Under the pieces are notes generated by a model that was not told the origin of the DNA, did not search any database, and worked only from the letters and a program-made list of their open reading frames with translations. Both the position numbers and the translations under genes were made by a program. From Verrucomicrobiota bacterium (GTDB lineage: Bacteria; Verrucomicrobiota; Verrucomicrobiia; Chthoniobacterales; SZAS-18): a stretch of 32,000 nt of DNA. The stretch lies in NCBI GenBank assembly GCA_018240025.1, contig JAFEGM010000074.1, forward strand, positions 11,811 through 43,810. The letters run 5' to 3'. Of this stretch, positions 14,016 through 25,452 are shown piece after piece. The first letter of the stretch is position 1, and every line of letters begins with the position of its first letter.

Positions 14016-14188
14016 GACCCGCACATAGCCGGTTCTGCGGCGGAGACCAAGCGTGCGCTGGGAATGCGCAAGAAGGAACGATGGCCCGCCCGAGCCGGCG
14101 GCGGTGCGCGGTGGGGGTTGCACAGCCGGGGCGTAACCGGCGCAGATCTTTCCTCGACAATAGTCTGCCCTTCCGCTTTGACCGCTCC

Positions 14189-15166
14189 ATGCCCGCCGAC
14201 CCAGCCGTGTCGACTCTCGATCAATTCGTGCGGGCGCTGGACCTCAAGGGCAGGCGCGACCACCTGCTCTGGGGTGTCTGGCGCGGTTTCCCGCTCGGGC
14301 TGACGCTGACCGATGGCTCGGCGCAGTCCGACGCGCTCTTTCACCTGCGCTATGCGGAGCACGCCTTCGCGCGGGGCGAGGAGCCGAAGCTCGAATTCGC
14401 CGAGCCGCTGCCGCGCCTGATGGACGAGGGCTGGGCCGAGGTCGAAATCCGGGACGACCTCGCCTGGCTCACGCTCAAGCGCTTCGGCGACCGGCTGCAG
14501 CGGGACGAGGTGGTGCCCGCGCTCGATTCGCTCATCGGGTGCCTGCGGAGCCTCGGGATCGAGGCGGTCGCAACCTGCCATTACTGCGGCGGCGCAGAGC
14601 AGGTCACCACCGTGGCCAGCAAGGGCCGCGTCGGCCAGATCTGCGCGAAGTGCATCGAGGAACAGATCGGCCCCGACGTGAACCGCCTCGGCTTCCGCGC
14701 GCGTTCGCTGGCTCCGCTGGCCCTGCTCGCGCCCCTCGTGCTGCTCTTGCAGAGTGGGCTCTGGGGCGGCATCTGGATCGGCGTGGACTGGGTCTTCGAG
14801 AAGCTCGGCGGCAGCATCCACATTCACAGCCTCGCCGCCGGCTTCGTGGTCCTGGTGCTCGCCTACCTCGCCGCCTCGCCCGCCTTTCTCTTCCGCCTCG
14901 TCGCCAACCGCGGCAATCGCCGCGCCGGCCTGCTGGGCGCCGCCTGCGCGCTCCTCGCCGTGCCGCTAGGCGAACTCTTCCACGTCGTGCAGCAGTTCGG
15001 CACCTATTCGGTCATCGGCCCCGTGCTGAAGCATCCCACGCTCATCTTCACGGTCCTCAATCCCGGCGACGGCCTCTTCGGCATCCTCAAGCTGCTGACC
15101 ATCGCCGGCTTCATCGGCATGTCGGTCTCGTGGGCGAAGCCGAAGAAGATCGAGCTGGAGTTGTGA
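14189..15166 (+). CDS. Hypothetical integral membrane protein with an N-terminal soluble domain and a CxxC...CxxC zinc-ribbon-like motif
   Basis: The likely start is ATG at 14189 (MPADPAVSTLDQF). It shows CHYCGGAEQVTTVASKGRVGQICAKC followed by about 4 hydrophobic helices (LAPLALLAPLVLLL, AAGFVVLVLAYLAA, LLGAACALLAVPL, LLTIAGFIGMSV). I did not recognise a family. Confidence 0.55.
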   Translation: MPADPAVSTLDQFVRALDLKGRRDHLLWGVWRGFPLGLTLTDGSAQSDALFHLRYAEHAFARGEEPKLEFAEPLPRLMDEGWAEVEIRDDLAWLTLKRFGDRLQRDEVVPALDSLIGCLRSLGIEAVATCHYCGGAEQVTTVASKGRVGQICAKCIEEQIGPDVNRLGFRARSLAPLALLAPLVLLLQSGLWGGIWIGVDWVFEKLGGSIHIHSLAAGFVVLVLAYLAASPAFLFRLVANRGNRRAGLLGAACALLAVPLGELFHVVQQFGTYSVIGPVLKHPTLIFTVLNPGDGLFGILKLLTIAGFIGMSVSWAKPKKIELEL

Positions 15167-15242: not shown

Positions 15243-16484
15243 TCAAATCGCCTTCACGACGAGCGTCGCATTGTGGCCGCCGAAGCCGAAGCTGTTGCTC
15301 ATGCAAACCTTCAGCTGCTTCTCGCGCGCCACCTTCGGTACGTAGTCGAGATCGCACTCGGGATCGGGCTCCTCGAGGTTGATGGTCGGCGGGATGACGC
15401 CGTGCTGCATGCCGAGCAGGCAGGCGATCAACTCCACGCCGCCGGCGGCGCCGAGGGTGTGGCCGGTCATCGACTTGGTCGAGCTCACGGCCAGCTTCTT
15501 CACGTCCTCGCCGAAGGCCAGCTTGATGGCCTTGGTCTCGGCGATGTCGCCCAGGCCGGTCGAGGTGGCGTGGGCGTTGAGATAATCGACCTCGGCCGGC
15601 GTGATGCCGGCGTGCTTCATGGCCATGCGCATGGCCGCGGCCGCGCCGGAGCCGTCGGGCGTGGGCGAGGTCATGTGGAAGGCGTCGCAGCTGACGCCGT
15701 AGCCAGCCAGCTCGGCGTAGATCTTGGCGCCGCGCCTCCTGGCGTGCTCGTATTCCTCCAGCACCACCACGCCGGCGCCCTCGCTGAGGACGAATCCGTC
15801 GCGGTCCTTGTCCCACGGACGCGAGGCGCGCTGCGGATCGTCGTTGCGCATGGAGAGCGCCTTCATGTTGCCGAAGCCGGAGAGTCCGAGCGGGGCGATG
15901 GCCGCCTCGGCGCCGCCGGCCAGGAACATGTCGGCATCGCCGAACTTAATCGTGCGCCAGGCCTCGCCGATGGTGTTGTTGGCGGTCGCGCAGGCGGTCA
16001 CGATGCTCATGTTCGGTCCGCGCAGGCCCCATTCCATCGCCACCAGGCCGCTGCCCATGTTGGCGATCATCATGGGGATCATGAATGGCGAGACGCGGCC
16101 GGGACCCTTTTGGATGAGATTGGTGTGCTGATCCTCGATGCTCTTGAGGCCGCCGATGCCGCTGCCGAGGAAGCAGCCGATGCGATCCTTGTCGAGCCCC
16201 TCGAATTCGCCCAGACCGGCGTCGGCCGCGGCCAGCTTGGAGGCAGCCATGAGCAGCTGGCTGTAGCGGTCCGCCCGGCGGGTGTCCTTGGCGACCTTGA
16301 AATACTTCGACGGCTCGAAGTTCTTCACCTCGCCGCCGATCTTGCAGTCGTAGCCGGTCGTGTCGAAGAGCGTGATGCGGTCGATGCCGCTCTGGCCCGT
16401 GCTGATGGCCTGCCAGAAAGTCTGCGGGTCACTGCCCACGGGTGAGAGGATGCCGATGCCAGTGATGACGACGCGACGATTCAT
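15243..16484 (-). CDS. fabF: 3-oxoacyl-ACP synthase II
   Basis: This is a 413-aa ORF beginning MNRRVVITGIGILSPVGS. It shows the active-site Cys context IVTACATANN, HMTSP and NAHATST for the His-His pair, and a C-terminal SNSFGFGGHNATLV. All are typical of KAS II. Confidence 0.92.
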   Translation of the reverse strand: MNRRVVITGIGILSPVGSDPQTFWQAISTGQSGIDRITLFDTTGYDCKIGGEVKNFEPSKYFKVAKDTRRADRYSQLLMAASKLAAADAGLGEFEGLDKDRIGCFLGSGIGGLKSIEDQHTNLIQKGPGRVSPFMIPMMIANMGSGLVAMEWGLRGPNMSIVTACATANNTIGEAWRTIKFGDADMFLAGGAEAAIAPLGLSGFGNMKALSMRNDDPQRASRPWDKDRDGFVLSEGAGVVVLEEYEHARRRGAKIYAELAGYGVSCDAFHMTSPTPDGSGAAAAMRMAMKHAGITPAEVDYLNAHATSTGLGDIAETKAIKLAFGEDVKKLAVSSTKSMTGHTLGAAGGVELIACLLGMQHGVIPPTINLEEPDPECDLDYVPKVAREKQLKVCMSNSFGFGGHNATLVVKAI

Positions 16485-16539: not shown

Positions 16540-17379
16540 TCATGGGCCGGAACCGGCCTCCCGTCCAGACGCTGACGCAGCTTCGTGGCCGGGCATCACT
16601 GTGAGCGAAAGCTCGTATTTACTGGCTCCGAGCGGCGCGAGCTCCGGGCCGAAGCGCTGCTCGACCATGGTGGCGTGACCCTCCCGGGAGAGCAGCAGCA
16701 CCGTGCTGGCCCGGGTGCCGTAGCGCTCGCCGCGGATCGCGACGGGCGAGAGGAACCGCTCGAGTTCGAGTCCCACGCCGGTCTGGGGCAGGTCCGCGTC
16801 GGCGGCGCGGGCTTCGTCGGCCAGGAGCGCGAAAGGCGGCTCGAGCGGTGGGGAACCTGCCGCGGGGTCGTCGGCCGCGAGCCAGGCGCCGAGCGCGCTG
16901 CGGGCGCGCCGGACTTTGGGCCAGTCGGCGGTGAGCGCGCCGTTGGACAGCGCGTGCAGGCCCGGCTCGAGTCGCTGCCAAGCGGGCGCGGGATGGTTGG
17001 TAACGTAAACGGCTTCGCGTCCCGCGCAGAGCACGAGATTGAAAGGTCGATAGTCCGCGGCACGCCGCAGCAGCGCCTCGGCGTGAACGACCGGAGACTG
17101 GTCGCCGCGGAGGAAATCGCGCGTCAGCCAGCCGCGCGACAGCTGCCCACGCTCGGCCCCGGACGGCAGCCGGACGTTCGTCACCGCCGCCATTCGGCCG
17201 CTGCGCGTGAACCCGAGCCAGGTACCGCCGCCCTCCAGATCGCGGCCCGCCAGCACTTCGGGCGCGTCCTCCCACCAGCCGAGCGGCGCGGAGGGTCGGG
17301 CGTGGAATTCGTCGCGATTGGCCGCCAGCACGAGGGGCCAGGCCGGATGCTGCTGCCAGGCCAGGACGATGAGACACAT
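16540..17379 (-). CDS. NRDE-family (TANGO2-like) protein
   Basis: This is a 279-aa ORF. MCLIVLAW...LVLAANRDEF...GGTWLG is the signature N-terminus of the NRDE/TANGO2 family. The gene starts 12 nt after the stop of the upstream nuclease-FtsK gene. Confidence 0.8.
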   Translation of the reverse strand: MCLIVLAWQQHPAWPLVLAANRDEFHARPSAPLGWWEDAPEVLAGRDLEGGGTWLGFTRSGRMAAVTNVRLPSGAERGQLSRGWLTRDFLRGDQSPVVHAEALLRRAADYRPFNLVLCAGREAVYVTNHPAPAWQRLEPGLHALSNGALTADWPKVRRARSALGAWLAADDPAAGSPPLEPPFALLADEARAADADLPQTGVGLELERFLSPVAIRGERYGTRASTVLLLSREGHATMVEQRFGPELAPLGASKYELSLTVMPGHEAASASGREAGSGP

Positions 17380-17391
17380 GCGGCGCAGGGA

Positions 17392-19599
17392 CTAGAACGG
17401 CAGACCGCGGTACGCTGTGCCTCCGCCCTGCCACAGCTGCAGAAATTCCTCCTGCTCGAGGAACGGTGCCTGCACGCGCTCGGTGCCGAAGCCGCGCTGG
17501 CAGAAAAGGTCGCCGCGGCCGAGCAGCGCCTCCGCGCCGGACTCGTCGAGCACGATCTGCGAATTCACCTGATTGGTCACGCGCAGGCAGAAACGCAGCG
17601 GCAGATTCGCCTTCAGGCCGCCGGTGACCACGTTGCGGTCGGGCCGCTGGGTGGCGAGGAGCACGTGCACGCCGGCGGCGCGGCCCTTGGCGGCGATGCG
17701 GCGGGCGAGACGCTCGAAATCGGCCCGCGCGGTGCGGTCCTCGTCCGCCATGAGATCGGCAAACTCGTCCACCACGATGAGGTGGTGCGGGATGTCGCGC
17801 CGCCCTTCCAGCCACCGATCGGAGAGTTTGACCAAATTCTCCGCCAGGAGCTGATCGTAGCGCTGGTCCATGTCGTCGGCCGCCGCGGCGAGACGCTCGC
17901 GCGCCTCGGCCACGTCGAAGACCACCGGCCCGCTCAGGAACGCGCTGTCGCGGATGTTGCCAAAGGTCACGCGCTTGGGATCGATGAGCGTGATGCGCAG
18001 CGACTCGGGCGTATTGCGGGCCAGCAGCGAGGCCAGCACCGCCTTGAGGAACTCGCTCTTGCCGCTGCCGGCCACGCCTGCCACGAGGCCCTGCGCCTGG
18101 TTCGAGTCGCCGAAATCGCAGATGATCGTTTCGCCGTTCACGCCCACGCCCGCCGCGAAGGCCAGCGGGCTGGGATGCCGCTGCAGCGCCTCGCTGTCGC
18201 GCACGCGGCTCCACGGCACGAGTTCGGGACGGTCACGCAGGACGTCGACGAAGACGCAGCCCGGTCCCGCCGAGATGAGCGGCTCCTGCGCGAGCGAGAG
18301 TTGGATGCGCAGATTGACCGCATTCGACTGGATGCGCCGAAACGTCGTGCCCGGGCCGAGCTTGATGCGGTAGCGGACCAACTGCGGCGCCGACTGCTGC
18401 CCGAGCACCGAAGAACGCACGCCATAGCTCGCCAGCGCCTCGACGATGCGCAGCCCGAGGTCCTTCGCGAACGAGGGCGTGACCGGCGCGCGCGGCGGGT
18501 CAGCGGGCCCTCCCATTCCGCCAGCGGGTCCGCCCATTCCCATTCCCATTCCTCCTCCCACTCGAGGCGTGGAGGCGGGTGATGGGGTGACTGGTGACGG
18601 GGTGACTGGTGACGGGGTGACTGGTGACGGGGTGACGGCGGGAGTGAGAGTGGGAGTGGGAGTGGGGCTCACCAGCGCGACGGCGGCGATGGCGGTGGCG
18701 GCCACGGGGGCCGGCGGCTCGGTCCGGGCGGGCAGCACGGCTGGCTCGGACGCGGCAGGTTCCAGCGTCGTCAGCCCCGGCAGTTCGGGCTGCGCGGGCG
18801 GCGCGACGAGTTTCGGGGGCGTGGGTGGAGTCGGCTTGCGCGGAGCGGGCGCGAGGCGCGTTTTCCGGGGCCGGATCGGCGGCGCGGTAGCCAGGGCGAT
18901 GCGCTCGAGCACGGGCTGCACGACAAACTGGAAGAGGACGTGCGATTCCTCGGCCGAGCGATCGAGCGAGCGCAGCGCGGGCTCGTAATACTCGAGTCGC
19001 GCGCCGAACTCGAGACCCGGGCGCGCGAGACGCAGCATTTCGGAATAGATCGCGATCTGCAGCAGATCGTGCTGAAGGCTGGCGCCCTGGGTCGTTTTGT
19101 AATCGACCACCACCAGGCCGCCCTCGCGCGTGCGCCGCACGAGATCGGGCCGGCCGCTCAGTTGGACCGGGCCACAATCGGTCGGCACGGTGACCGACTG
19201 CAGCTGATATTCCGCCGTCAGCAGCAGTCCGCTCCAAGGCACCGCCACCGCGCTCCGCTCCTCGGCCAGCGAGTGGCACCAATGGCGCACGCAGGTGGCC
19301 AGCGCATGGGCGGCGGCGGGGGACTGCGTGCGGCCAACCTCCGCCACGCGCGCGTAGGCCACGCGTTCCCAGCACATCTGCCAGAGCGGGAGCGGACCGT
19401 CGAGCGCCTCGGCCTCGCCGGCATTGGCGGGCTGGGTCAGCCAGCCGGCGAAGTCCTGCGCGATGCGGTGGAACGGCGCACCGATGGCCGCGCCAGCGCC
19501 CGACCGCGTCGGCGGCGGGGGCGTGAGCTTCGGGTCTTCCACCCAGCGCTGGAGCCATTCGGCATCCACGCAGGCGTGACGCAGTTGGGTGACGGTCAT
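17392..19599 (-). CDS. RecB/Cas4-like PD-(D/E)XK nuclease domain fused, via a long Pro/Thr/Ser-rich linker, to an FtsK/SpoIIIE-type DNA translocase ATPase (no TM segments, no gamma domain)
   Basis: The track ORF is 17392..19692. The likely start is ATG at 19599 (MTVTQLRHA), which forms an ATGA overlap with the upstream stop; an alternative ATG lies at 19608. The N-terminal region shows SGRPDLV, LVVVDYKT and LQIAIY, corresponding to nuclease motifs II, III and QxxxY (19045..19155). The C-terminal region shows the FtsK alpha/beta-like LVRYRIKLGPGTTFRRI, Walker A GLVAGVAGSGKSEF (18055..18078), LIDPKRV, Walker B HHLIVVDEFADLM (17755..17781) and LLATQRPD. Confidence 0.8.
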   Translation of the reverse strand: MTVTQLRHACVDAEWLQRWVEDPKLTPPPPTRSGAGAAIGAPFHRIAQDFAGWLTQPANAGEAEALDGPLPLWQMCWERVAYARVAEVGRTQSPAAAHALATCVRHWCHSLAEERSAVAVPWSGLLLTAEYQLQSVTVPTDCGPVQLSGRPDLVRRTREGGLVVVDYKTTQGASLQHDLLQIAIYSEMLRLARPGLEFGARLEYYEPALRSLDRSAEESHVLFQFVVQPVLERIALATAPPIRPRKTRLAPAPRKPTPPTPPKLVAPPAQPELPGLTTLEPAASEPAVLPARTEPPAPVAATAIAAVALVSPTPTPTLTPAVTPSPVTPSPVTPSPVTPSPASTPRVGGGMGMGMGGPAGGMGGPADPPRAPVTPSFAKDLGLRIVEALASYGVRSSVLGQQSAPQLVRYRIKLGPGTTFRRIQSNAVNLRIQLSLAQEPLISAGPGCVFVDVLRDRPELVPWSRVRDSEALQRHPSPLAFAAGVGVNGETIICDFGDSNQAQGLVAGVAGSGKSEFLKAVLASLLARNTPESLRITLIDPKRVTFGNIRDSAFLSGPVVFDVAEARERLAAAADDMDQRYDQLLAENLVKLSDRWLEGRRDIPHHLIVVDEFADLMADEDRTARADFERLARRIAAKGRAAGVHVLLATQRPDRNVVTGGLKANLPLRFCLRVTNQVNSQIVLDESGAEALLGRGDLFCQRGFGTERVQAPFLEQEEFLQLWQGGGTAYRGLPF
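18584..18636 (-). repeat. In-frame 15-bp tandem repeat (GGGGTGACTGGTGAC x3 plus a partial copy on the + strand) encoding (VTPSP)n in the linker of the nuclease-FtsK gene
   Basis: I read this directly. The adjacent short repeats GAGTGG x3 and CCATTC x3 encode PTPTPT and GMGMGMG. Confidence 0.85.
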
Positions 19600-21617
19600 C
19601 CGCGCCATAGGAGAACGGTCATGGCGGGACTCGCAATGACCTCGAGACTGGTGAGTTCGCCCGCCGCATGGACCACCGCGGCCGGATCCCACGGCGCGCC
19701 GAGGCGCTGGGCGGCGTCACTCGCGGAGAGGAATTTCTCCGCCCGCAGCAATTCCTCCAGGCGACCCGCGTGGAGCGAAGCCTGCGCTCCGGGCGGGCCG
19801 GATGGGCGGGCCTCGACGGGGCCGAGAATGCGCTCGCGCCACGGCGTGAGCCGGACGCGCAGGAACTCGAGCACCGCAGCGCTGTCGTGGCCATCGATGT
19901 TGCCGGCCTCCGACTCGAGGAACATCTGCCGCGCGGCGTAAAGCTCGGCCGTCTCCGTCGGAGTCAATTGCAGCAGATGCAGGCCGTGATGCTGGGCGGC
20001 GCGAACCTTGGGGCCATTGATCTGCCAGGTGGCGCGCGGCACATCGTCGAGCTCGGGCGTGCGGAAGACCACGATCTTGGCCGGTCGGCGCGGGCCCGAG
20101 GCGGGCGGAAGCACGCGGCGCGCGAGGCGCCCCCATTTTACGTGCGACCAGCCGAAGCCGAAGGTGAAATCGATCGGCCCGCGCGCCGCCTTCGGCCAGC
20201 GCAGTTCGACGAGGCCCTCGACGTCGTCGGCGTCGACGCACGCATCCGCCGTGGGCGCGAGCGGCCCGCGCAGCAGCCAGCGGAACGGATCGGGCGCGAA
20301 GGCCAGCTGCTTCGGACTCGCCTCCATGCGGGCGCGGAACTCGGCGAAGACCTCCTCCAGGCTGGGCGGTGGCGGCAGTTCGGCGCCATCGGCCCAACGC
20401 ACCTGGCAGAGCTTGAGGAACTCGCGCGGACCGAGCGTGGCGCGCTGGGAAGGAAACAGCTTCTCGAGCCAGCGCGGATCGGCGAATTTCTCCGCCACCG
20501 CCGGCTCCACCGACCAGGGCGCCAAGCGCAGGCTGATCAGCTCCCCCGCCTGCTCGCGCTGCAGACCTTCGAGCAGGAGCCCGCGACCGAAGCGATCGTG
20601 ATGCGCGGCATCGACCTCCGGCCAGACGCGGCGATCCCAGACGTCCTTGTTCGCGGTCACCACCGTCATCTGGTTGCGGTGTTCGTTGACCAGTCGCGCC
20701 ACCACGAAGCCGAACATGGCGGCCAGCCGCGGCGAGGTGCCGTAGTCTTCGGTCTGGTCGAAGCAGAAGAACCAGGGTCGATGAAAGCGTGCGAGGGCGC
20801 AGAGATCGTGAATGCGGTGGTGCGCCAGGCTGTTGAGCGCCTCCTCGCTTTCCGGCTGCATCGTGTCGATGACGCTCAGCCCGAGCGCCTCGCGCTCGTC
20901 GTCCTCCAGCGCCTCGCCGCGCATCCACGCCAGACACGCCGAGGCCGCGGCGGTGCCGGGTGCGTGCGTCAGCCAGGTGGTCAGCACCCGCAGCCAGGCC
21001 GTGCTGCGCAGCCGCGCCTGTCCCGGCTGGCGGTCGAGCTCAGCCGTCAAAATGCGGTGGTCGTGATACGCGACGTCGAGCAGCCATTCCTCCACCTGCC
21101 GCCAGGGCCGGCGCAGGTCCCACCAGTCGTGCGCGATGAGCGCGTCCCCGATCGCCTCCCAATTCTCCGGCCGCTCCAGCTCGCCATGGGCCAATGCGCT
21201 GGCGGTGACGGCGCGCAGCACGCGCTGGGCGAGGAGATCGAGCTGCGTGACCGCCTCGTTCGTCGCTTCCGGCTGGCGCAGTTCATTGACCGCCTGCAGG
21301 AGCAGCGAGTGCCAGCACAGCGAGGGGGCCTGGAACGGCTGCACCCAGACGAGCGTGGCCCGGCCCGCCAGCGCGGCGAAAAGACGCGTGATGAGATGGC
21401 TCTTGCCGTAGCCCGGCGCCGAGGAGAGCACGAGCGTGGCCGGGGCGGCGACCTGGTCGCGATCGCCCGGCAGCGCCTGGGCCAGCGGTTCGAAGGCGGC
21501 CAGCACCCGCTCGAAGACGTCGCGGTTGAGCGAATCGACCGAGGGCGGGCGCTCGCGCGGACCGGCCACGATGTGGTGGGCGAAGGGGTTGACCGGAAGA
21601 TCGACGGGCGGCGGCAT
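19596..21617 (-). CDS. Large P-loop NTPase (AAA_16 / Arch_ATPase / ORC-Cdc6-like or STAND-like), 673 aa, with a C-terminal winged-helix-like tail
   Basis: The true start is ATG at 21617 (MPPPVDLPVNPFAHHIVAGP). The track ORF starts at 22205, but that part is an Arg/Ser-rich out-of-frame overlap of the upstream gene. Walker A is LVLSSAPGYGKSHLITRL (21396..21422). A distal Walker B-like motif is PWFFCFDQTED. LLLEGLQREQAGELI resembles the L.L.pL..eea segment of AAA_16 ATPases. The stop TGA at 19598..19596 overlaps the next gene's ATG. Confidence 0.7.
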   Translation of the reverse strand: MPPPVDLPVNPFAHHIVAGPRERPPSVDSLNRDVFERVLAAFEPLAQALPGDRDQVAAPATLVLSSAPGYGKSHLITRLFAALAGRATLVWVQPFQAPSLCWHSLLLQAVNELRQPEATNEAVTQLDLLAQRVLRAVTASALAHGELERPENWEAIGDALIAHDWWDLRRPWRQVEEWLLDVAYHDHRILTAELDRQPGQARLRSTAWLRVLTTWLTHAPGTAAASACLAWMRGEALEDDEREALGLSVIDTMQPESEEALNSLAHHRIHDLCALARFHRPWFFCFDQTEDYGTSPRLAAMFGFVVARLVNEHRNQMTVVTANKDVWDRRVWPEVDAAHHDRFGRGLLLEGLQREQAGELISLRLAPWSVEPAVAEKFADPRWLEKLFPSQRATLGPREFLKLCQVRWADGAELPPPPSLEEVFAEFRARMEASPKQLAFAPDPFRWLLRGPLAPTADACVDADDVEGLVELRWPKAARGPIDFTFGFGWSHVKWGRLARRVLPPASGPRRPAKIVVFRTPELDDVPRATWQINGPKVRAAQHHGLHLLQLTPTETAELYAARQMFLESEAGNIDGHDSAAVLEFLRVRLTPWRERILGPVEARPSGPPGAQASLHAGRLEELLRAEKFLSASDAAQRLGAPWDPAAVVHAAGELTSLEVIASPAMTVLLWRG

Positions 21618-21621
21618 GGCG

Positions 21622-22302
21622 TCAGCTTCCGGGGGGTGGCGCGAGGCGGACGTAGAGCCGCGGGACGCCGAGATGTTCGATGGCTGCGGCCCGTTCCTCC
21701 GCGGTCGCGTCGGGCCAGTTGCCGGTCTCGAGCGAACCCCAGCCTTCAGCCACGACCCGGCGTCGGATCCACGCCTGCACTTCGGCCAGCGGGTGCCCGC
21801 ATTCGGCCACCAGCGCGGCGAGGCGGACCGCGGCGAGTCCGTCGCGGGCCTGCAGGCGCCGATACGCCGAGAGCAGGTCGGTCTCCAGCGCGCCACTCGC
21901 GGCGGCCGGCACCGGTGCCGCCGGGGCGCGCCCGATGTGGCGGGCGTGCAGATAGAGAAATTCCAATTTCGCATCGGACTGCACCTCGAAGCGCAGCACG
22001 CGCCGGGCGGCCCACAGATCCTCGAGGGCCGCGTCGAAGGCCGGATGCGCCACGCGCCCGCCCTTGAGCGTCTGGCGCTTGAACAGCTTGGGCGTGGCCG
22101 CGAGGACCGCTTCGAGACGCTGCGCGAGGGCCGCGCGGCTTTCGAAAATCTGGGTGCCGCGCTGCACCACCAGGCCCTCAGCCAGCAGCTCGGCCAGCGC
22201 GGCACGACGTGGCTGACTGCGGCATTCCGTCAACGGGCAGCGCCCGCGCGGCTCGAGGAGTTCGAGCAGGCGGGCCCGCGGAGACGGCGTTGGCTTGGCC
22301 AT
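21622..22302 (-). CDS. Small hypothetical protein (226 aa) with two winged-helix-like segments; first gene of the three-gene module
   Basis: The likely start is ATG at 22302 (MAKPTPSPRARLLELLEPRG); the track start at 22344 is TTG. Helix-rich segments RARLLELLE...AALAELLAEGLVVQRG and LAAVRLAALVAECGHPLAEVQAWIRRRVVAEGWG look wHTH-like by eye only. I recognised no catalytic motif. The stop codon is 4 nt before the next ATG. Confidence 0.5.
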   Translation of the reverse strand: MAKPTPSPRARLLELLEPRGRCPLTECRSQPRRAALAELLAEGLVVQRGTQIFESRAALAQRLEAVLAATPKLFKRQTLKGGRVAHPAFDAALEDLWAARRVLRFEVQSDAKLEFLYLHARHIGRAPAAPVPAAASGALETDLLSAYRRLQARDGLAAVRLAALVAECGHPLAEVQAWIRRRVVAEGWGSLETGNWPDATAEERAAAIEHLGVPRLYVRLAPPPGS

Positions 22303-22371: not shown

Positions 22372-25311
22372 TCACTCGCCCGAGAGCGCCTGCTCCATGA
22401 CTGCGGCGAGTTCGTTGCGTTGATAGGGTTTGGCCAGGAGCGCGCAAAATCCGAGACGGAGGTAATCGGAGCGCACCTCGTCGACCATGTAGCCGCTGCT
22501 CACGATGCAGCGCAGCGACGGATCCTCCGAACGCGCCTCCTGCATGACTTCGATGCCGCCGGGGCCGCCGGGCAGGGTGAGGTCGAGCAGTCCAACCTCG
22601 AACGGCTTCCCGGCGGTGCGGGCGTTGCGGAACAGCTCCATCGCCTCGGCCGCGCTGGCCGCCTCCGTGACCTGATGTCCCAATCCCTCGAGCATGCGGC
22701 GCGCGACCACGCGGACGCCCGGCTCGTCATCGAGCACCAATACCTTCGCGCCCGTGCGCACCGCCCGTGGGGGCTGGGCGCGTTCGGCATCGGCCGGGCT
22801 GCGGCGGCCGGCGGAGGGCCACCAGATGCGCACGAGCGTGCCGGCACCCGGCGCATTTTCGCAGACGATGCGGCCATCGTGCTTCTTCACGATGGCATGG
22901 GCCGCGGCCAGCCCGAGCCCGCTGCCGCCGGGCTTGGTGCTGAAGAACGGCTCGAAGACGCGCGGCAGGACGTCGGCCGGGATGCCGGGGCCCGTGTCCT
23001 CCGCCTCGATGCGTACATGGGGCCGCTGACAATCGTCGCTGCCGTGATCCTCCGCCCGGGCGCGTACGCGCAGCCGGCCGCCGCCGGGCATGGCCTGGAC
23101 GGCGTTGAGTACGATGTTGTGCAGCACGCGATGCAGCTGCGCGGGATCGGCTTCGAGATCGGGCAGATCGTCCTCGATCTCCCAATCGGCGCGCACATTG
23201 GAGCCGTGGAGCGCGAAGTTGACGCAATCGCGCAGGATCTCACGCAGGCTCGCGGCCTGCCGCAGCGGATGCCCGCCGCGCGTGAAGGTCATCAGCTGCC
23301 CGGTCAGTTCCCGCGCCCGGCGGCCCGCGAGTTCCGCGTCGTCGAGACGCGCGATGGCGTCCTCCGTCTGTCCCTCCGACAGCGAGGCGAGGGCGAACGA
23401 GACGTTCCCGTTGAGCGCGGTCAGGATGTTGTTGAAATCGTGCGCGATACCGGCCGCAATGACCGCCAGACCGTCGAGCTTGCCCGCGCGGATGAGCTCG
23501 GCCTGCCGCTGGTCCTCCGCGGTCAGGTCGTGGAACACCCGCAGCACCCCCGCCAGGCGGCCGGAGGCGTCGCGCAACGGCAGGGTGCTGCAGGACACGT
23601 GCAAAGCCGGGCCTTCGCGCGGGATTGTCCAGACGTGCCGCGGCGTGTGCAGCGGCTCGCCCGTGCGCAGGACGAGCTCGACGGCATCCGTGCCGACGCC
23701 CTGCGGATAGGGCGGGGAGGGGTCGCCCGGCACGGGATCCCGCACCTCGAAATAGGAGCCGAGCGGCTTCCCGCTCAGGTTCTCGGGCGAGGCGCCGAGC
23801 AGACGCGAGGCGGCCGGATTGGCCAGCACGATGCGGCCGGCGCGATCAGCCGTCAGCACGGCATCCGAGAGCGACTCGAGCACCACGCGCAGCTGCTCTT
23901 TTTCTGCGTCGAGCGCGAGCATCGACTCCTCGCGATCCAGCGCCACCGCGAGGGCGCCGCCCATGGCGCGGAGGTGATCGCGCTCCGCCTCGCTCCAGCG
24001 TCGGACCGCGGTGGTGCATTGATAGGCCAAAGCCCAGCGCAGTTGCCCGCGCACCCGCAACGGTGCCTGCATCGACGAGACGATCCCGGCCGCGCGCATG
24101 ACTTCCTGTTCCTGCCCCCGCACCTGGCTGCGCTGCAGTTCGAGAATCTCGCCCCGTCGGAGCGTCTCGCGCCAGGCCGGCAGGCTGAAGGCCTGCACCG
24201 ACTCCTCGCCGCGGGGGATGCGGGGCTCGACGCCCGGGGCGGCCCATTCCGCCACGATGCGCGGCGGGTGAGTGTGGTCGGGCGGATACTCCAGGAGCAG
24301 CGCGCGCGAGACCCCGGCCGAGCGACCGAGCAGACCGAGGATCTCCGGCAAATGCTCCCGCACGCGCGGTCGGGCCAGCAAGATGCGCTGCACCGCGGCC
24401 TCGGTGGCGAGCAGGCGGTCACGCACCGCCAAGCCGACCTCGAAGGCGCGGCGCGCCGAGACATCGCGCGCGTTGAGCACGATGCCGGCGACGTGTGGGT
24501 CGTCGAGCCGGTTGACCGCCGAGATCTCGATCCAGCGGAGATGCCCTTCGGAGTCGCGGATACGGCATTCCTCCGTGATGACGCCGCCGAACTCCGCCAA
24601 GCCCTCGAGCAGGTCGGCCATGGCCTTACGGTCCTCGCGATGCACCAGCTTGAGCGCATTGCGCCCGACCACCGTTTCGGCCGGCAGCCCGAACTCGTGG
24701 CTCGGCCAGCCGAAGACGTGGCTCGTGCTCTCGCTGGCATAGGTCACGATCCCGGCGCGAGTGATGATGAGAATCGCATCCGACGAATGCTCGACCAGGC
24801 TGCGCAGACGGTGCTCCCCGGCGCGGGCTCGCTCCTCGGCCAGCACGCGGTCGGTCACGTTGACGCCGATCAGGATGACCCCGCCGACGGAAGGATCGTG
24901 CAGCAGGTTCGTACCGTCTGCGTGCATCCACGACCACTCGTCGGTGGCCGCGCGTGCCCAGCGGAAAACGGCGATCTCCGTGCCGCCCGGGGTGGCTGCG
25001 AGCCGTTCGAAGCGTCGCTGCGCCTCGGCCCGGTCCTCCGGATGCACCAGCCCCAGCCAGTGCTCGCCCACGCGCGACCCTGGGTCGTAGCCGAAGATCT
25101 CGGCCGCCCCGCGGCTTTCGGATTTGATGACGAAGTCGGCATCGAGGACGAAAACTGCCGCGACCGACGAGTGCAGCCCGGGCTGCAGCGCAGGCAGAGG
25201 CTCGGCCTGACGCGAAACACTGCCGTCGTAGACGCTGTGCGACATGGGGGGATAGAAGGAAGCGCGATGCGCCAGAACGGGCAAACGGCTCATTGACTGC
25301 AATTTCGACAT
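22372..25311 (-). CDS. Cytoplasmic hybrid sensor histidine kinase (PAS-PAS-GAF-like-PAS-HisKA-HATPase_c-receiver)
   Basis: The H-box is AAGIAHDFNNILTAL. The HATPase motifs are HRVLHNIVLNAVQAM, EDTGPGIP and GGSGLGLAAAHAIV. The C-terminal receiver shows KVLVLDDEPGVR, GLLDLTLPG and LAKPY. Several PAS-like blocks are present (for example LRSLVEHSSDAILIITRAGIVTYASES and LRVVLESLSDAVLTADRAGRIVLANPAA). I saw no TM helix. The start is ambiguous (ATG at 25311, 25293 or 25245; the track uses TTG at 25320). Confidence 0.85.
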   Translation of the reverse strand: MSKLQSMSRLPVLAHRASFYPPMSHSVYDGSVSRQAEPLPALQPGLHSSVAAVFVLDADFVIKSESRGAAEIFGYDPGSRVGEHWLGLVHPEDRAEAQRRFERLAATPGGTEIAVFRWARAATDEWSWMHADGTNLLHDPSVGGVILIGVNVTDRVLAEERARAGEHRLRSLVEHSSDAILIITRAGIVTYASESTSHVFGWPSHEFGLPAETVVGRNALKLVHREDRKAMADLLEGLAEFGGVITEECRIRDSEGHLRWIEISAVNRLDDPHVAGIVLNARDVSARRAFEVGLAVRDRLLATEAAVQRILLARPRVREHLPEILGLLGRSAGVSRALLLEYPPDHTHPPRIVAEWAAPGVEPRIPRGEESVQAFSLPAWRETLRRGEILELQRSQVRGQEQEVMRAAGIVSSMQAPLRVRGQLRWALAYQCTTAVRRWSEAERDHLRAMGGALAVALDREESMLALDAEKEQLRVVLESLSDAVLTADRAGRIVLANPAASRLLGASPENLSGKPLGSYFEVRDPVPGDPSPPYPQGVGTDAVELVLRTGEPLHTPRHVWTIPREGPALHVSCSTLPLRDASGRLAGVLRVFHDLTAEDQRQAELIRAGKLDGLAVIAAGIAHDFNNILTALNGNVSFALASLSEGQTEDAIARLDDAELAGRRARELTGQLMTFTRGGHPLRQAASLREILRDCVNFALHGSNVRADWEIEDDLPDLEADPAQLHRVLHNIVLNAVQAMPGGGRLRVRARAEDHGSDDCQRPHVRIEAEDTGPGIPADVLPRVFEPFFSTKPGGSGLGLAAAHAIVKKHDGRIVCENAPGAGTLVRIWWPSAGRRSPADAERAQPPRAVRTGAKVLVLDDEPGVRVVARRMLEGLGHQVTEAASAAEAMELFRNARTAGKPFEVGLLDLTLPGGPGGIEVMQEARSEDPSLRCIVSSGYMVDEVRSDYLRLGFCALLAKPYQRNELAAVMEQALSGE

Positions 25312-25452
25312 GTCACGCAACCACGGAAATTATGGTGGCTATGAATGCACGAAGTGTGCCAGTCCTTCTGTCGTGCGGCGAGAGCGCCGGCCGGCGGCGG
25401 ATTGAGCGCGATTCCCGCTTGCCTTGAAGCCGATCCTCCGCCAATCGGCCCC

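What the first reader, a model, noticed from the sequence alone, without database searches (positions are those of the whole stretch)
17392..19599. Atypical FtsK: no membrane anchor, no gamma (KOPS-reading) domain, and a RecB/Cas4-like nuclease head instead
Seen: the C-terminal 330 aa or so align by eye to the FtsK alpha/beta motor. The protein then ends about 30 aa after the motor (…LEQEEFLQLWQGGGTAYRGLPF), so there is no room for a gamma winged helix. The N-terminal 230 aa or so have no hydrophobic helices and carry the ordered motifs GRPD-x13-DYK-x12-QIAIY typical of RecB/AddB/Cas4 nuclease domains. The C-terminal Cys cluster of Fe-S Cas4 proteins is absent. Established knowledge: housekeeping FtsK needs its TM domain for septal targeting and its gamma domain for KOPS-guided dimer resolution. 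Inference: this is not the divisome FtsK. It looks like a processive DNA pump that delivers DNA to its own nuclease, a single-polypeptide analogue of HerA-NurA.
Basis: partly seen in the sequence, partly recalled or inferred. Interest (0 to 1): 0.7.

Follow-up and report, generated by a model that had tools for sequence, protein, structure and literature searches.

The report
Nuclease-tipped FtsK pump in defence cassette
This gene encodes a soluble FtsK-type DNA pump fused to a RecB-like nuclease; it is the third gene of a conserved three-gene cassette (DNA-binding protein, Orc/Cdc6-like ATPase, nuclease-pump) that looks like an untested anti-invader system already predicted from genomes in 2024, not the cell-division FtsK.

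Summary
The minus-strand ORF 17392-19599 (735 aa) has three parts:
- a PD-(D/E)XK nuclease head with every catalytic motif conserved;
- a disordered Pro-rich linker;
- an FtsK alpha/beta motor. There is no membrane anchor and no gamma domain.

It is not a lone oddity. It is gene C of a tightly packed A-B-C cassette.
- A is a fast-evolving protein with tandem winged-helix-like domains.
- B is a 673-aa AAA+ ATPase whose predicted fold best matches Cdc6/Orc1.

A sits directly upstream of B in essentially all 80 related loci. C follows B in about 55 of them. Some lineages fuse B and C into one protein. Two loci replace the FtsK motor with HerA.

B relatives occur in only 172 of 185,579 species genomes. 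They were not found in phage or viral collections. The cassette often lies beside known defence genes.

The domain set matches the "Orc/CDC6-coupled HerA/FtsK capture systems" predicted computationally by Aravind's group (NAR 2024). I found no experimental work on them.

"Single-polypeptide HerA-NurA analogue" is incomplete. The closer analogue is the REase-FtsK end of DndH/SspH, working with partner proteins. Verdict: new member of a predicted kind, moderate interest.

The parts
21622..22302 (-). Gene A: 226-aa fast-evolving protein with tandem winged-helix-like domains (predicted DNA-recognition subunit)
   Evidence: An ORF of this family ends at the start of B in essentially all related loci (jackhmmer). 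It equals NCBI hypothetical protein P0249. It evolves fastest of the cassette parts, with a median pairwise identity of 25%. Its first two ~60-aa segments are homologous to each other (hhalign probability 93%, E 2.8e-7). Only weak hits exist to winged-helix domains: PscE, RPA32 WH, ZBP1 Z-alpha, MCM4_WHD, DprA_WH and AbiEi. None is significant alone. No Pfam, NCBIfam or PADLOC family matches.
19596..21617 (-). Gene B: 673-aa AAA+ ATPase of Orc/Cdc6 type. It has a ~190-aa helical insertion between Walker A and B, a C-terminal alpha/beta domain (aa ~440-600) and a terminal winged-helix-like unit (aa ~610-673).
   Evidence: Walker A (G69, G71-K72-S73), Walker B region (F286-D287-Q288-T289-E290) and T321/N323 are invariant in 43 homologues. 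The AF2 model has pLDDT 85.8 and pTM 0.83. The Foldseek PDB top hit is Cdc6 1fnn (E 9.1e-4, prob 1.00), followed by Orc1/Cdc6 2qby, HslU and ORC subunits. There is no Pfam, NCBIfam or PADLOC family and no PDB sequence match. The start at 21617 lies 4 nt after the stop of A. The stop TGA (19598-19596) overlaps the ATG of C as ATGA.
17392..19599 (-). Gene C (the finding): 735-aa nuclease-linker-FtsK motor protein
   Evidence: See the sub-parts below.
18880..19599 (-). C, aa 1-240: RecB/AddAB/AdnAB-class PD-(D/E)XK nuclease domain
   Evidence: PDDEXK_1 scores E 1.6e-12. The AF2 pLDDT is about 93, with the element order helical bundle, beta 133-138, 145-149, 153-156, 162-168, alpha 175-192, beta 198-204, 210-214, alpha 216-238. 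The family profile hits the AdnA/AdnB nuclease domains (6ppu, 7sjr) and Cas4 4ic1 with the catalytic motifs aligned. E130, D152, D166-K168, Q181 and Y185 are conserved.
19045..19146 (-). Codons of the catalytic motifs D152 (19144-19146), D166-Y-K168 (19096-19104) and Q181-Y185 (19045-19059)
   Evidence: The positions are computed from the translation. Conservation is shown.
18466..18879 (-). C, aa 241-378: disordered Pro/Thr/Ser/Gly-rich linker, expanded by short tandem DNA repeats
   Evidence: The pLDDT is below 50 over most of 245-378. Linker length varies widely among homologues, and P0004 almost lacks one. Tandem repeats include a 15-bp unit x3.9 at 18578-18636 and a 6-bp unit x3.3 at 18533-18552.
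17425..18465 (-). C, aa 379-725: FtsK alpha + beta motor. Walker A GSGKS 511-515 = 18055-18069; Walker B DE 611-612 = 17764-17769.
   Evidence: The Foldseek PDB top hits are E. coli and P. aeruginosa FtsK motor domains 2ius, 2iut and 6t8b (E about 1e-33 to 1e-30, target TM 0.72-0.83, 29-32% identity). TcpA, EccC/EssC and HerA follow far behind. The best PADLOC hit is the C-terminus of SspH, E 3.9e-52.

Best explanation
Gene C is the effector of a three-gene, chromosomally encoded anti-invader system of the "HerA/FtsK capture" type.

Proposed mechanism:
1. The hypervariable tandem winged-helix protein A and the Orc/Cdc6-like AAA+ ATPase B recognise a target DNA or DNA structure.
2. A and B recruit, load or activate C.
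3. C assembles, like FtsK, into a ring on double-stranded DNA and translocates using ATP.
4. Its RecB-like nucleases, tethered by flexible linkers, cut the DNA being pumped.

The gamma domain is absent, so KOPS cannot guide the pump. The membrane anchor is absent, so the septum cannot position it. Targeting must therefore come from A and B. No modification enzyme belongs to the cassette.

**Shown here:** the domain anatomy; conservation of the catalytic residues in both the nuclease and the motor; the conserved A-B-C order with start/stop overlap; co-divergence of the parts; B-C gene fusions; sporadic phylogenetic spread; frequent defence-gene neighbours.

**Inferred:** ring formation; DNA translocation; nuclease activity; the loader or sensor role of A and B; the defence function itself.
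For: - **Anatomy and active sites:**
- **Cassette order.** B is followed directly by the nuclease-motor gene in about 55 of 80 species loci, from Verrucomicrobiota, Desulfobacterota, Nitrospirota, Alpha- and Gammaproteobacteria and other phyla. A lies directly upstream of B in essentially all of them. JGI and NCBI contigs show the same order.
- **Physical coupling.** The best 149 cluster representatives include 10 B+nuclease+motor fusions and 22 B+motor fusions.
- **Inherited as a unit.** Pairwise divergences of A, B, nuclease and motor correlate at r = 0.85-0.91. A evolves fastest (25% median identity, against 33%, 39% and 53%).
- **Accessory, not housekeeping.** B relatives occur in 172 of 185,579 species genomes. 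Some MAGs (metagenome-assembled genomes) hold two divergent cassettes (L041+L065, L013+L078).
- **Defence neighbourhood.** Roughly 13-15 of 120 nearest-neighbour ORFs hit PADLOC models at E < 1e-10. These include mad3 x2, HEC-05, NsnA, SoFic, type I-U Cas5/6, RT_UG29, PD-T4-2_A, DolB and IetA. GmrSD_N and AbiEii-type AAA_21 appear in Pfam.
- **Motor swapping.** The same nuclease head is fused to HerA instead of FtsK in L061 and L075.
- **Fold of B:** best match Cdc6/Orc1.
- **Literature.** PMC10853773, section 22, describes operons with an Orc/CDC6 ATPase carrying an inserted inactive REase and a C-terminal wHTH. These operons also hold an active REase, a HerA/FtsK that in one set carries the FtsK-alpha domain, and optionally a rapidly evolving 2-4 wHTH protein. 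The authors propose invader interception.
Against:
- The window's own flanks are housekeeping genes: a histidine kinase, TANGO2, FabF and an M17 peptidase.
- The defence-neighbour enrichment has no formal background control. It rests on crude ORF calls and on half of the nearest-two neighbours.
- A and B match no PADLOC model.
- RecB-family nucleases normally cut single strands fed by a helicase. FtsK does not unwind DNA, so how a duplex pump feeds this nuclease is unclear.
- The inactive-REase domain expected in B could not be confirmed. hhalign against the nuclease head gave a probability of 1%.
- About 15 of 80 loci have A-B without C. A-B may therefore have a function of its own.
Confidence: 0.6

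Rival explanations
1. C is a DNA end-processing or repair machine working like HerA-NurA or RecBCD/AddAB/AdnAB. It resects or degrades broken chromosomal DNA for the cell's own maintenance. A and B serve as damage or end sensors.
For: The nuclease head is closest to the AdnAB and Cas4/RecB nucleases. These act with motors in end resection. FtsK motors bind and stall at dsDNA ends (PDB 6t8o is among the top hits). Many flanking genes are housekeeping.
Against: Distribution is very sporadic, at 0.09% of species. Partner A is hypervariable. Some MAGs carry several divergent copies. Defence genes are frequent neighbours. A repair pathway would be expected to be more vertically inherited and its DNA-binding subunit more conserved.
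Confidence: 0.15
2. The cassette belongs to a mobile element and serves that element's own DNA transfer, partition or transposition. It would resemble TraB/TcpA-type FtsK-like conjugation motors, or Tn7-like sets that combine an Orc/Cdc6-clade ATPase with a REase-fold nuclease.
For: The structural hits after FtsK are the TcpA conjugation coupling proteins. There is a weak NCBIfam hit to plasmid TraB. PMC10853773 calls these neighbourhoods mobile and notes Orc/CDC6-clade ATPases in Tn7/Mu. The phyletic pattern is patchy.
Against: No integrase, transposase or relaxase family appears among the 25 commonest families of 120 nearest neighbours. C has no membrane anchor for a transfer pore. Plasmids hold only a fragment, in Methylosinus pOB3b1. 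No match was found in 50,697 phage records. No relatives were found in 2.9 million IMG/VR contigs.
Confidence: 0.1
3. C is a divergent replacement for the cell-division or chromosome-segregation FtsK in this lineage.
For: The motor, including the alpha domain, is a genuine FtsK-clade motor with about 30% identity to E. coli FtsK. One A-B locus (L006) lies next to ftsQ-ftsA-ftsZ.
Against: C has no TM domain and no gamma domain. It scores far below the NCBI FtsK equivalog cutoff. The family occurs sporadically, including in Bradyrhizobium, Rhodoplanes and Rhodovulum. By general knowledge, not tested here, those genera have ordinary FtsK. L006 lacks C altogether.
Confidence: 0.03

Closest known systems
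Orc/CDC6-coupled HerA/FtsK capture systems (computational prediction; Nucleic Acids Res 2024, PMC10853773, section 22; recapitulated in PMC12839542)
   Same: The domain inventory is the same:
- an Orc/Cdc6-type AAA+ ending in a wHTH-like unit (B);
- an active REase-fold nuclease plus an FtsK motor with the FtsK-alpha domain (C);
- a rapidly evolving multi-winged-helix protein (A).

The domains are split or fused in various ways, the motor can be swapped for HerA, and the systems spread sporadically.
   Different: - I could not confirm the inactive REase said to be inserted in the Orc/CDC6 protein.
- I could not check whether this particular triad is in that paper's dataset, because the supplement is not held.
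- The paper relates the multi-wHTH protein to DndG/SspB/FokI. A gave no PADLOC hit to those.
DndH / SspH of the DndFGH and SspFGH restriction systems
   Same: Both have a REase-fold nuclease immediately upstream of a C-terminal FtsK-clade motor. The motor of C matches the SspH C-terminus at E 3.9e-52. Both lack a TM domain and a gamma domain.
   Different: - DndH/SspH are proteins of ~1,700 aa with further domains: an inactive SWI2/SNF2 half, TRDs and an inactive methylase. They work with DndF/G or SspF/G.
- None of those domains or partners is present here.
- Per PMC10853773 their nuclease is type II REase-like (BpuSI-like). Here it is RecB/AdnAB-like.
Cellular FtsK/SpoIIIE
   Same: The alpha/beta motor is shared, with ~30% identity, a target TM-score of ~0.8, and Walker A/B and the TQRP motif intact.
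   Different: C has no 4TM anchor and no gamma (KOPS-reading) winged helix, and it carries a nuclease head. It belongs to a sporadic accessory operon rather than being a universal gene.
HerA-NurA, and the HerA-based defence systems Sir2-HerA and DUF4297-HerA
   Same: The logic is the same: a ring ATPase of the HerA/FtsK superfamily coupled to a nuclease or other effector. Two related loci really do carry HerA on this nuclease head.
   Different: - In the window the motor is FtsK-clade. HerA structures match only at E ~1e-7, against 1e-33 for FtsK.
- The nuclease is PD-(D/E)XK, not NurA, Sir2 or DUF4297.
- Nuclease and motor are one polypeptide joined by a flexible linker.
RecB / AddAB / AdnAB nuclease domains and Cas4
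   Same: The catalytic motif set is the same, E...GRxD...(D/E)xK...QxxxY, with the upstream GxxFH motif. The best PDB sequence matches are AdnA/AdnB and Cas4.
   Different: C is attached to a duplex translocase instead of an SF1 helicase. It has no 4-Cys Fe-S cluster, and it scores 18.6 bits against the Cas4 TIGR00372 cutoff of 65.

Membership tests
Canonical divisome FtsK/SpoIIIE | N-terminal 4-TM membrane anchor (PF13491) | tested here: not met
   Pfam gives no hit. The highest 19-residue hydropathy mean is 1.39. Ten of the 11 canonical FtsK hits (P0005-P0015) carry PF13491.
Canonical divisome FtsK/SpoIIIE | Alpha/beta RecA-like hexameric motor | tested here: met
   FtsK_alpha and FtsK_SpoIIIE are found. 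Foldseek matches 2ius, 2iut and 6t8b at E ~1e-33 with target TM ~0.8.
Canonical divisome FtsK/SpoIIIE | C-terminal gamma winged helix (PF09397) reading KOPS and activating XerCD | tested here: not met
   Pfam gives no hit. The protein ends ~10 residues after the last motor helix. All 11 canonical FtsK hits carry PF09397.
Canonical divisome FtsK/SpoIIIE | Reaches NCBI's FtsK equivalog score and is present in nearly all bacteria | tested here: not met
   NF007615 scores 138.8 bits against a cutoff of 1566. Partner B relatives occur in 172 of 185,579 species genomes.
RecB/AddAB/AdnAB-type PD-(D/E)XK nuclease (Pfam PDDEXK_1) | Profile match above the curated threshold | tested here: met
   It scores 48.4 bits against a cutoff of 22, E 1.6e-12, over aa 35-207.
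RecB/AddAB/AdnAB-type PD-(D/E)XK nuclease (Pfam PDDEXK_1) | Catalytic motifs E / GxxD / (D/E)xK / QxxxY present and conserved | tested here: met
   E130, D152, D166-K168, Q181 and Y185 are invariant or nearly invariant in 32 and 53 homologues. They align to the AdnA/AdnB motifs.
RecB/AddAB/AdnAB-type PD-(D/E)XK nuclease (Pfam PDDEXK_1) | Alpha-beta-beta-beta-alpha-beta core fold, superposable on a solved RecB-family nuclease | tested here: inconclusive
   The confident model (pLDDT ~93) has the expected order of strands and helices. The whole-protein Foldseek list was filled by motor hits, so no superposition of the head alone was obtained.
Cas4 | Four-cysteine Fe-S cluster (one N-terminal, three C-terminal Cys) and the Cas4 family score | tested here: not met
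   No Cys occurs after Y185. TIGR00372 scores 18.6 bits against a cutoff of 65. There is no CRISPR context in the window.
HerA-NurA | HerA-clade ATPase paired with a NurA nuclease | tested here: not met
   The motor is FtsK-clade. The nuclease is PD-(D/E)XK. There is no NurA gene in the cassette.
Orc/CDC6-coupled HerA/FtsK capture system (PMC10853773) | Orc/CDC6-family AAA+ ATPase encoded with the motor | tested here: met
   The B model has pLDDT 85.8. The best PDB fold matches are Cdc6 1fnn (E 9.1e-4, prob 1.00), Orc1/Cdc6 2qby and ORC subunits. The match is modest (TM 0.24/0.40) because of large insertions. B is adjacent to, or fused with, the motor.
Orc/CDC6-coupled HerA/FtsK capture system (PMC10853773) | Inactive REase domain inserted between the AAA+ core and a C-terminal wHTH | tested here: inconclusive
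   B has an alpha/beta domain at ~440-600 whose element order is compatible with REase. It has no invariant or nearly invariant acidic or lysine residue. It is followed by an H-E-H-H-E-E unit at 610-671. hhalign against the active nuclease head shows no similarity (prob 1%). No domain-level fold search was possible.
Orc/CDC6-coupled HerA/FtsK capture system (PMC10853773) | Active REase-fold nuclease plus a HerA/FtsK ATPase, one subset with the FtsK-alpha domain | tested here: met
Orc/CDC6-coupled HerA/FtsK capture system (PMC10853773) | [quoted passage not shown] | tested here: inconclusive
   A is the fastest-evolving part. It holds an internal duplication of a ~60-aa unit (hhalign prob 93%). 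Its matches to winged helices are only sub-threshold. No structure was predicted.
Orc/CDC6-coupled HerA/FtsK capture system (PMC10853773) | Protects against phages, plasmids or other invaders | not testable with these tools
   The only support is by association: defence-gene neighbours and sporadic distribution.
DndFGH / SspFGH | DndH/SspH multidomain body (inactive SWI2/SNF2 half, TRDs, inactive methylase) with DndF/G or SspF/G partners | tested here: not met
   The PADLOC SspH match covers only the motor, aa 384-722. A and B hit no Dnd or Ssp model.

The most novel reading that the evidence does not exclude
The Orc/Cdc6-like ATPase B is a dedicated ring loader or activator. By analogy with ORC/Cdc6 loading MCM, it places the nuclease-bearing FtsK hexamer onto DNA chosen by the hypervariable winged-helix subunit A.

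This would create a modification-independent, loader-gated DNA shredder. It would be a defence mechanism with no experimentally characterised precedent. It would also show how a gamma-less FtsK motor is targeted and how a duplex pump feeds a RecB-type nuclease.
Probability: 0.3. Interest if true: 0.7.

Novelty: new member of a known kind. Interest (0 to 1): 0.5.

Why it matters
If the cassette is a working defence system, it would be the first experimentally tractable minimal form of the predicted HerA/FtsK capture systems. It has three genes, no modification module and a 735-aa effector.

It would address three questions:
- how one of the fastest known DNA motors is re-targeted without its KOPS reader;
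- whether an Orc/Cdc6-type AAA+ can load or gate a non-MCM ring;
- how tethered RecB-like nucleases act on translocating duplex DNA.

Cultured carriers exist as starting material: Rhodoplanes elegans DSM 11907, Rhodoplanes azumiensis, Bradyrhizobium sp. HKCCYLS20291 and Rhodovulum sp. PH10.

Current annotation hides the system. C is named only "PD-(D/E)XK nuclease family protein" and A and B are "hypothetical". None of the three has a dedicated model in Pfam, NCBIfam or PADLOC.

Tried and rejected
1. **Word-indexed search with full-length C.** It gave only 4 same-architecture hits, because the Pro-rich linker and the abundance of FtsK saturated the candidate list. The exhaustive profile search and a search through partner B solved this.
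2. **Histidine kinase as a fourth component.** A kinase lies next to the cassette in the window, L002 and L004. I rejected the link, since only 6 of 120 nearest neighbours carry HATPase_c/Response_reg and 154 different families occur.
3. **TANGO2 gene 12 nt downstream of C as part of the operon.** Rejected, because it is absent downstream in the other loci.
4. **Link to cell division suggested by L006.** There A-B lies beside ftsQ-ftsA-ftsZ. Rejected as coincidence: C is absent there and no other locus shows it.
5. **Sequence match of B to solved structures.** None was found.
6. **Homology between B's C-terminal alpha/beta domain and the active nuclease head.** None is detectable.
8. **Phage, viral or plasmid carriage.** There was no match in phage records, no relatives in viral contigs, and only a truncated fragment between IS6 copies on a Methylosinus megaplasmid.
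9. **Supplement of PMC10853773, to see whether this triad is listed.** It is not held in usable form.
10. **Iyer et al. 2004 FtsK-HerA paper.** It is not held.
11. **T7SS EccC-like protein translocase.** Rejected. C has a single ATPase domain, an FtsK-alpha domain and no TM, and EccC/EssC matches are 15-20 orders of magnitude weaker than FtsK.


Full report
**1. The observation**

The window is about 70% G+C. On the minus strand an ORF runs 17392..19692. This is identical to an NCBI protein from a Verrucomicrobia MAG, annotated only as "PD-(D/E)XK nuclease family protein", on a 104,791-bp contig.

- Pfam finds PDDEXK_1 at aa 35-207 (E 1.6e-12, above threshold), FtsK_alpha at 383-447 and FtsK_SpoIIIE from 466 (E 1e-31).
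- Pfam finds no Ftsk_gamma and no FtsK 4TM domain. Every canonical FtsK recovered has the gamma domain, and 10 of 11 have the 4TM domain.
- No 19-residue window exceeds a hydropathy mean of 1.39.
- No Cys follows Y185, so there is no Cas4-type cluster.
- The score against NCBI's FtsK equivalog is 138.8 bits, against a cutoff of 1566.

An AlphaFold model built on 32 homologues gives three regions:
- a confident nuclease head, aa 1-240, pLDDT about 93;
- a disordered linker, aa 245-378, pLDDT below 50;
- a confident motor, aa 380-725.

The motor superposes on E. coli and P. aeruginosa FtsK motor structures (E about 1e-33, target TM about 0.8, about 30% identity). TcpA, EccC/EssC and HerA follow far behind.

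A profile of 53 nuclease heads finds the AdnA/AdnB nuclease domains and Cas4 as the best solved relatives, with the catalytic motifs aligned. The E-values are weak, 0.003-0.13.

Across members down to 26% identity, H44, D152, K168, Q181, Y185, the Walker A residues, D611-E612 and T650-Q651 are invariant. E130, D166, D178 and R652 are invariant or nearly so.

**2. The gene is part of a three-gene cassette**

| Gene | Coordinates (minus strand) | Product | Junction |
|---|---|---|---|
| A | 21622-22302 | 226 aa | 4 nt before the start of B |
| B | 19596-21617 | 673 aa | stop overlaps the ATG of C as ATGA |
| C | 17392-19599 | 735 aa | the finding |

The gene-like ORFs come from a GC3 filter.

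- **B family.** B has at least 83 clusters of homologues, all "hypothetical" and almost all without Pfam domains.
- **Same order elsewhere.** Contigs carrying B homologues from a Spartobacteria MAG and two Nitrospirae genomes (including Ca. Magnetobacterium casense) show the same order. So does the JGI contig carrying C homologue P0004. In each, a ~230-260-aa gene is followed by a ~680-aa gene, then a ~590-615-aa PDDEXK_1/FtsK_alpha/FtsK_SpoIIIE gene.
- **Distribution.** A scan of one genome per GTDB species found B relatives in 172 of 185,579 species. These include Verrucomicrobiota, Desulfobacterota, Nitrospirota, Alpha- and Gammaproteobacteria, Acidobacteria, Bacteroidales, Myxococcales, Nitrospinota and Mariprofundaceae.
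- **C follows B.** I searched the 80 best loci with HMMs made from the nuclease head, the motor and B. The nuclease-motor gene begins within 0-90 nt of B's end in about 55 loci.
- **A precedes B.** An A-family ORF ends at B's start in essentially all loci.
- **No fourth gene.** The 120 nearest-neighbour ORFs fall into 154 Pfam families. Histidine-kinase domains appear in only 6, so the kinase next to the window's cassette is coincidence.

**3. Evidence that A, B and C work together**

An exhaustive HMMER search of 1.84 billion cluster representatives with a C profile returned 39,713 hits, mostly ordinary FtsK. I dissected the best 149:

| Architecture | Count |
|---|---|
| Nuclease + motor | 49 |
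| B + nuclease + motor in one chain (~1,200-1,400 aa) | 10 |
| B + motor without the head (~960-1,030 aa) | 22 |
| Motor only by my HMM | 49 |
| Two or more motor domains | 19 |

- Six of ten "motor only" proteins of 600-700 aa also carry PDDEXK_1 by Pfam. They form a second, more divergent nuclease-FtsK subfamily.
- Gene fusion of B with C is strong evidence of physical cooperation.
- Over 44 loci, pairwise divergences of A, B, head and motor correlate at r = 0.85-0.91. Median identities are 25%, 33%, 39% and 53%. The cassette moves as a unit and A evolves fastest.
- In L061 and L075 the same nuclease head is fused to a HerA-type ATPase instead of FtsK. In L019 an SMC/AAA_27-like protein follows B.

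**4. What A and B are**

*B*
- B has no sequence match in the PDB and no match in Pfam, NCBIfam or PADLOC.
- Its AlphaFold model is good (pLDDT 85.8, pTM 0.83).
- Its best PDB fold matches are Cdc6 (1fnn, E 9.1e-4, prob 1.00), Orc1/Cdc6 (2qby), HslU and ORC subunits. The match is modest.
- Walker A, a DQTE Walker B region and a T-x-N sensor-1-like motif are invariant.
- A helical insertion of about 190 aa lies between Walker A and B. This probably explains the HslU matches, since by my knowledge (not tested here) HslU has an inserted I domain.
- Residues ~440-600 form an alpha/beta domain with no conserved acidic or lysine residue.
- Residues 610-671 have a helix-strand-helix-helix-strand-strand order typical of a winged helix.

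*A*
- A is very divergent, 20-34% identical to the window copy.
- Its first two ~60-aa segments are homologous to each other (hhalign prob 93%).
- All its weak database matches are winged-helix or HTH domains.

**5. Comparison with the literature**

A comparative-genomics paper (PMC10853773, section 22) reports that DndH carries a C-terminal HerA/FtsK ATPase. It describes a broader set of "HerA/FtsK capture" systems. One class couples the motor to a specific Orc/CDC6 AAA+ ATPase with:
- an inactive REase inserted before the ATPase's C-terminal wHTH;
- an active REase;
- a HerA/FtsK that in one set carries the FtsK-alpha domain "captured from the cellular versions";
[quoted passage not shown] My independent findings match this description feature for feature:
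- the Cdc6-like fold of B;
- the fusions of B with C;
- the motor swap from FtsK to HerA;
- the FtsK-alpha domain in C;
- the hypervariable tandem-domain protein A.

The inactive REase in B is the exception, because I could not verify it. The same group restates the concept in 2026 (PMC12839542). Four literature searches found no experimental study of this architecture. PADLOC v2 has no models for A or B, and only the motor of C hits SspH and mad8.

**6. Defence or something else**

*For defence*
- The distribution is sporadic.
- Two divergent cassettes occur in single MAGs: L041+L065, L013+L078 and L037+L079.
- Subunit A is hypervariable.
- Roughly 13-15 of 120 nearest-neighbour ORFs hit PADLOC models at E < 1e-10. 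These include MADS mad3 and mad8, HEC-05, Menshen NsnA, SoFic, type I-U Cas5/6, DRT RT_UG29, PD-T4-2_A, Dodola DolB and IetA.

*Caveats*
- There is no formal background for that enrichment.
- ORF calling was crude.
- The window's own flanks are housekeeping genes.

*Against a mobile-element function*
- No recombinase or relaxase families recur among the neighbours.
- There is no match in phage records and no relatives in IMG/VR contigs, and essentially none on plasmids.

*Against a housekeeping repair or division role*
- The family is rare and its phyletic pattern is patchy.

**7. Mechanism (inferred)**

1. A and B bind a feature of target DNA.
2. B, an initiator-type AAA+, recruits, loads or switches on C.
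3. C forms an FtsK-like ring on duplex DNA and translocates.
4. The nuclease heads cut the DNA. Each is on a flexible tether of roughly 15 to 40 aa in most relatives and about 135 aa in the window protein.

Three questions remain open:
- A RecB-type, normally single-strand-directed nuclease must deal with duplex DNA from a non-unwinding pump.
- Self DNA must be spared without any modification gene.
- A-B pairs lacking C (about 15 of 80 loci, with B ~70 aa shorter) must have some role. One of them, L083, is followed by a GmrSD-type nuclease gene.

**8. Verdict**

The protein is one subunit of a three-gene system that has already been predicted, but not tested, as an anti-invader "capture" system. 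I rate it a new member of a known (predicted) kind. Interest is moderate, because the mechanism is attractive and tractable and no experiment exists.

Noticed in passing
window 18501-18666 (inside the linker of C): The Pro/Thr/Ser/Gly-rich linker is built from short tandem DNA repeats: a 15-bp unit x3.9 encoding (TPSPV)n, a 6-bp unit x3.3 encoding GMGMGM and a 21-bp unit x1.9. The three closest homologues have linkers of quite different length (735, 739 and 662 aa), and P0004 nearly lacks one. The linker looks like a microsatellite-type length-variable tether.
   Followed up: partly
L061:5918-7906 and L075:3947-6073: The same family of nuclease head, directly after a B gene, is fused to a HerA-type ATPase (HerA_C, DUF87) instead of the FtsK motor. 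This is a natural motor swap within one cassette family.
   Followed up: partly
L006:7349-10073 (also L013, L016, L018, L021-L025, L029, L046, L047, L064, L083): These loci hold A-B pairs without any nuclease-motor gene, and most have a B about 70 aa shorter at the C-terminus. In L006 the pair lies just downstream of ftsQ-ftsA-ftsZ and an AAA gene. In L083 (Desulfocicer vacuolatum DSM 3385) a GmrSD_N gene follows ~420 nt downstream. Whether A-B alone is functional or uses other effectors is unknown.
   Followed up: partly
window 16540-17379 (-): A bacterial TANGO2-family gene (PF05742, E 2e-65) starts only 12 nt after the stop of C, followed by fabF (15243-16484). It does not accompany the cassette in other loci.
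   Followed up: partly
window 7548-9575 (+): A 675-aa protein combines a Ser/Thr protein kinase domain with a C-terminal FGE-sulfatase (formylglycine-generating enzyme-like) domain.
   Followed up: no
window 22372-25320 (-): A large hybrid histidine kinase (PAS x several, GAF, HisKA, HATPase_c, receiver) ends 70 nt upstream of gene A on the same strand. Kinases also flank the cassette in L002 and L004, but across 120 neighbours the association is only 6/120.
   Followed up: yes
window 14081-15166 (+): A 361-aa ORF with good codon bias and no Pfam match. It has two CxxC pairs (CHYC...CAKC) followed by a hydrophobic, probably membrane-spanning C-terminal half.
   Followed up: no
L087 (Methylosinus trichosporium OB3b plasmid pOB3b1, 279098-279778): The only plasmid match to B is a ~226-aa fragment corresponding to B residues 378-593. 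It is annotated as hypothetical and lies next to two IS6 transposase copies. It is probably a remnant of a disrupted cassette.
   Followed up: partly
P0145, P0148, P0149, P0162, P0170, P0172, P0174, P0189: Giant proteins of 2,300-2,900 aa hold six or seven FtsK-like ATPase domains in tandem. They appear among the best motor hits and are unrelated to this cassette.
   Followed up: no
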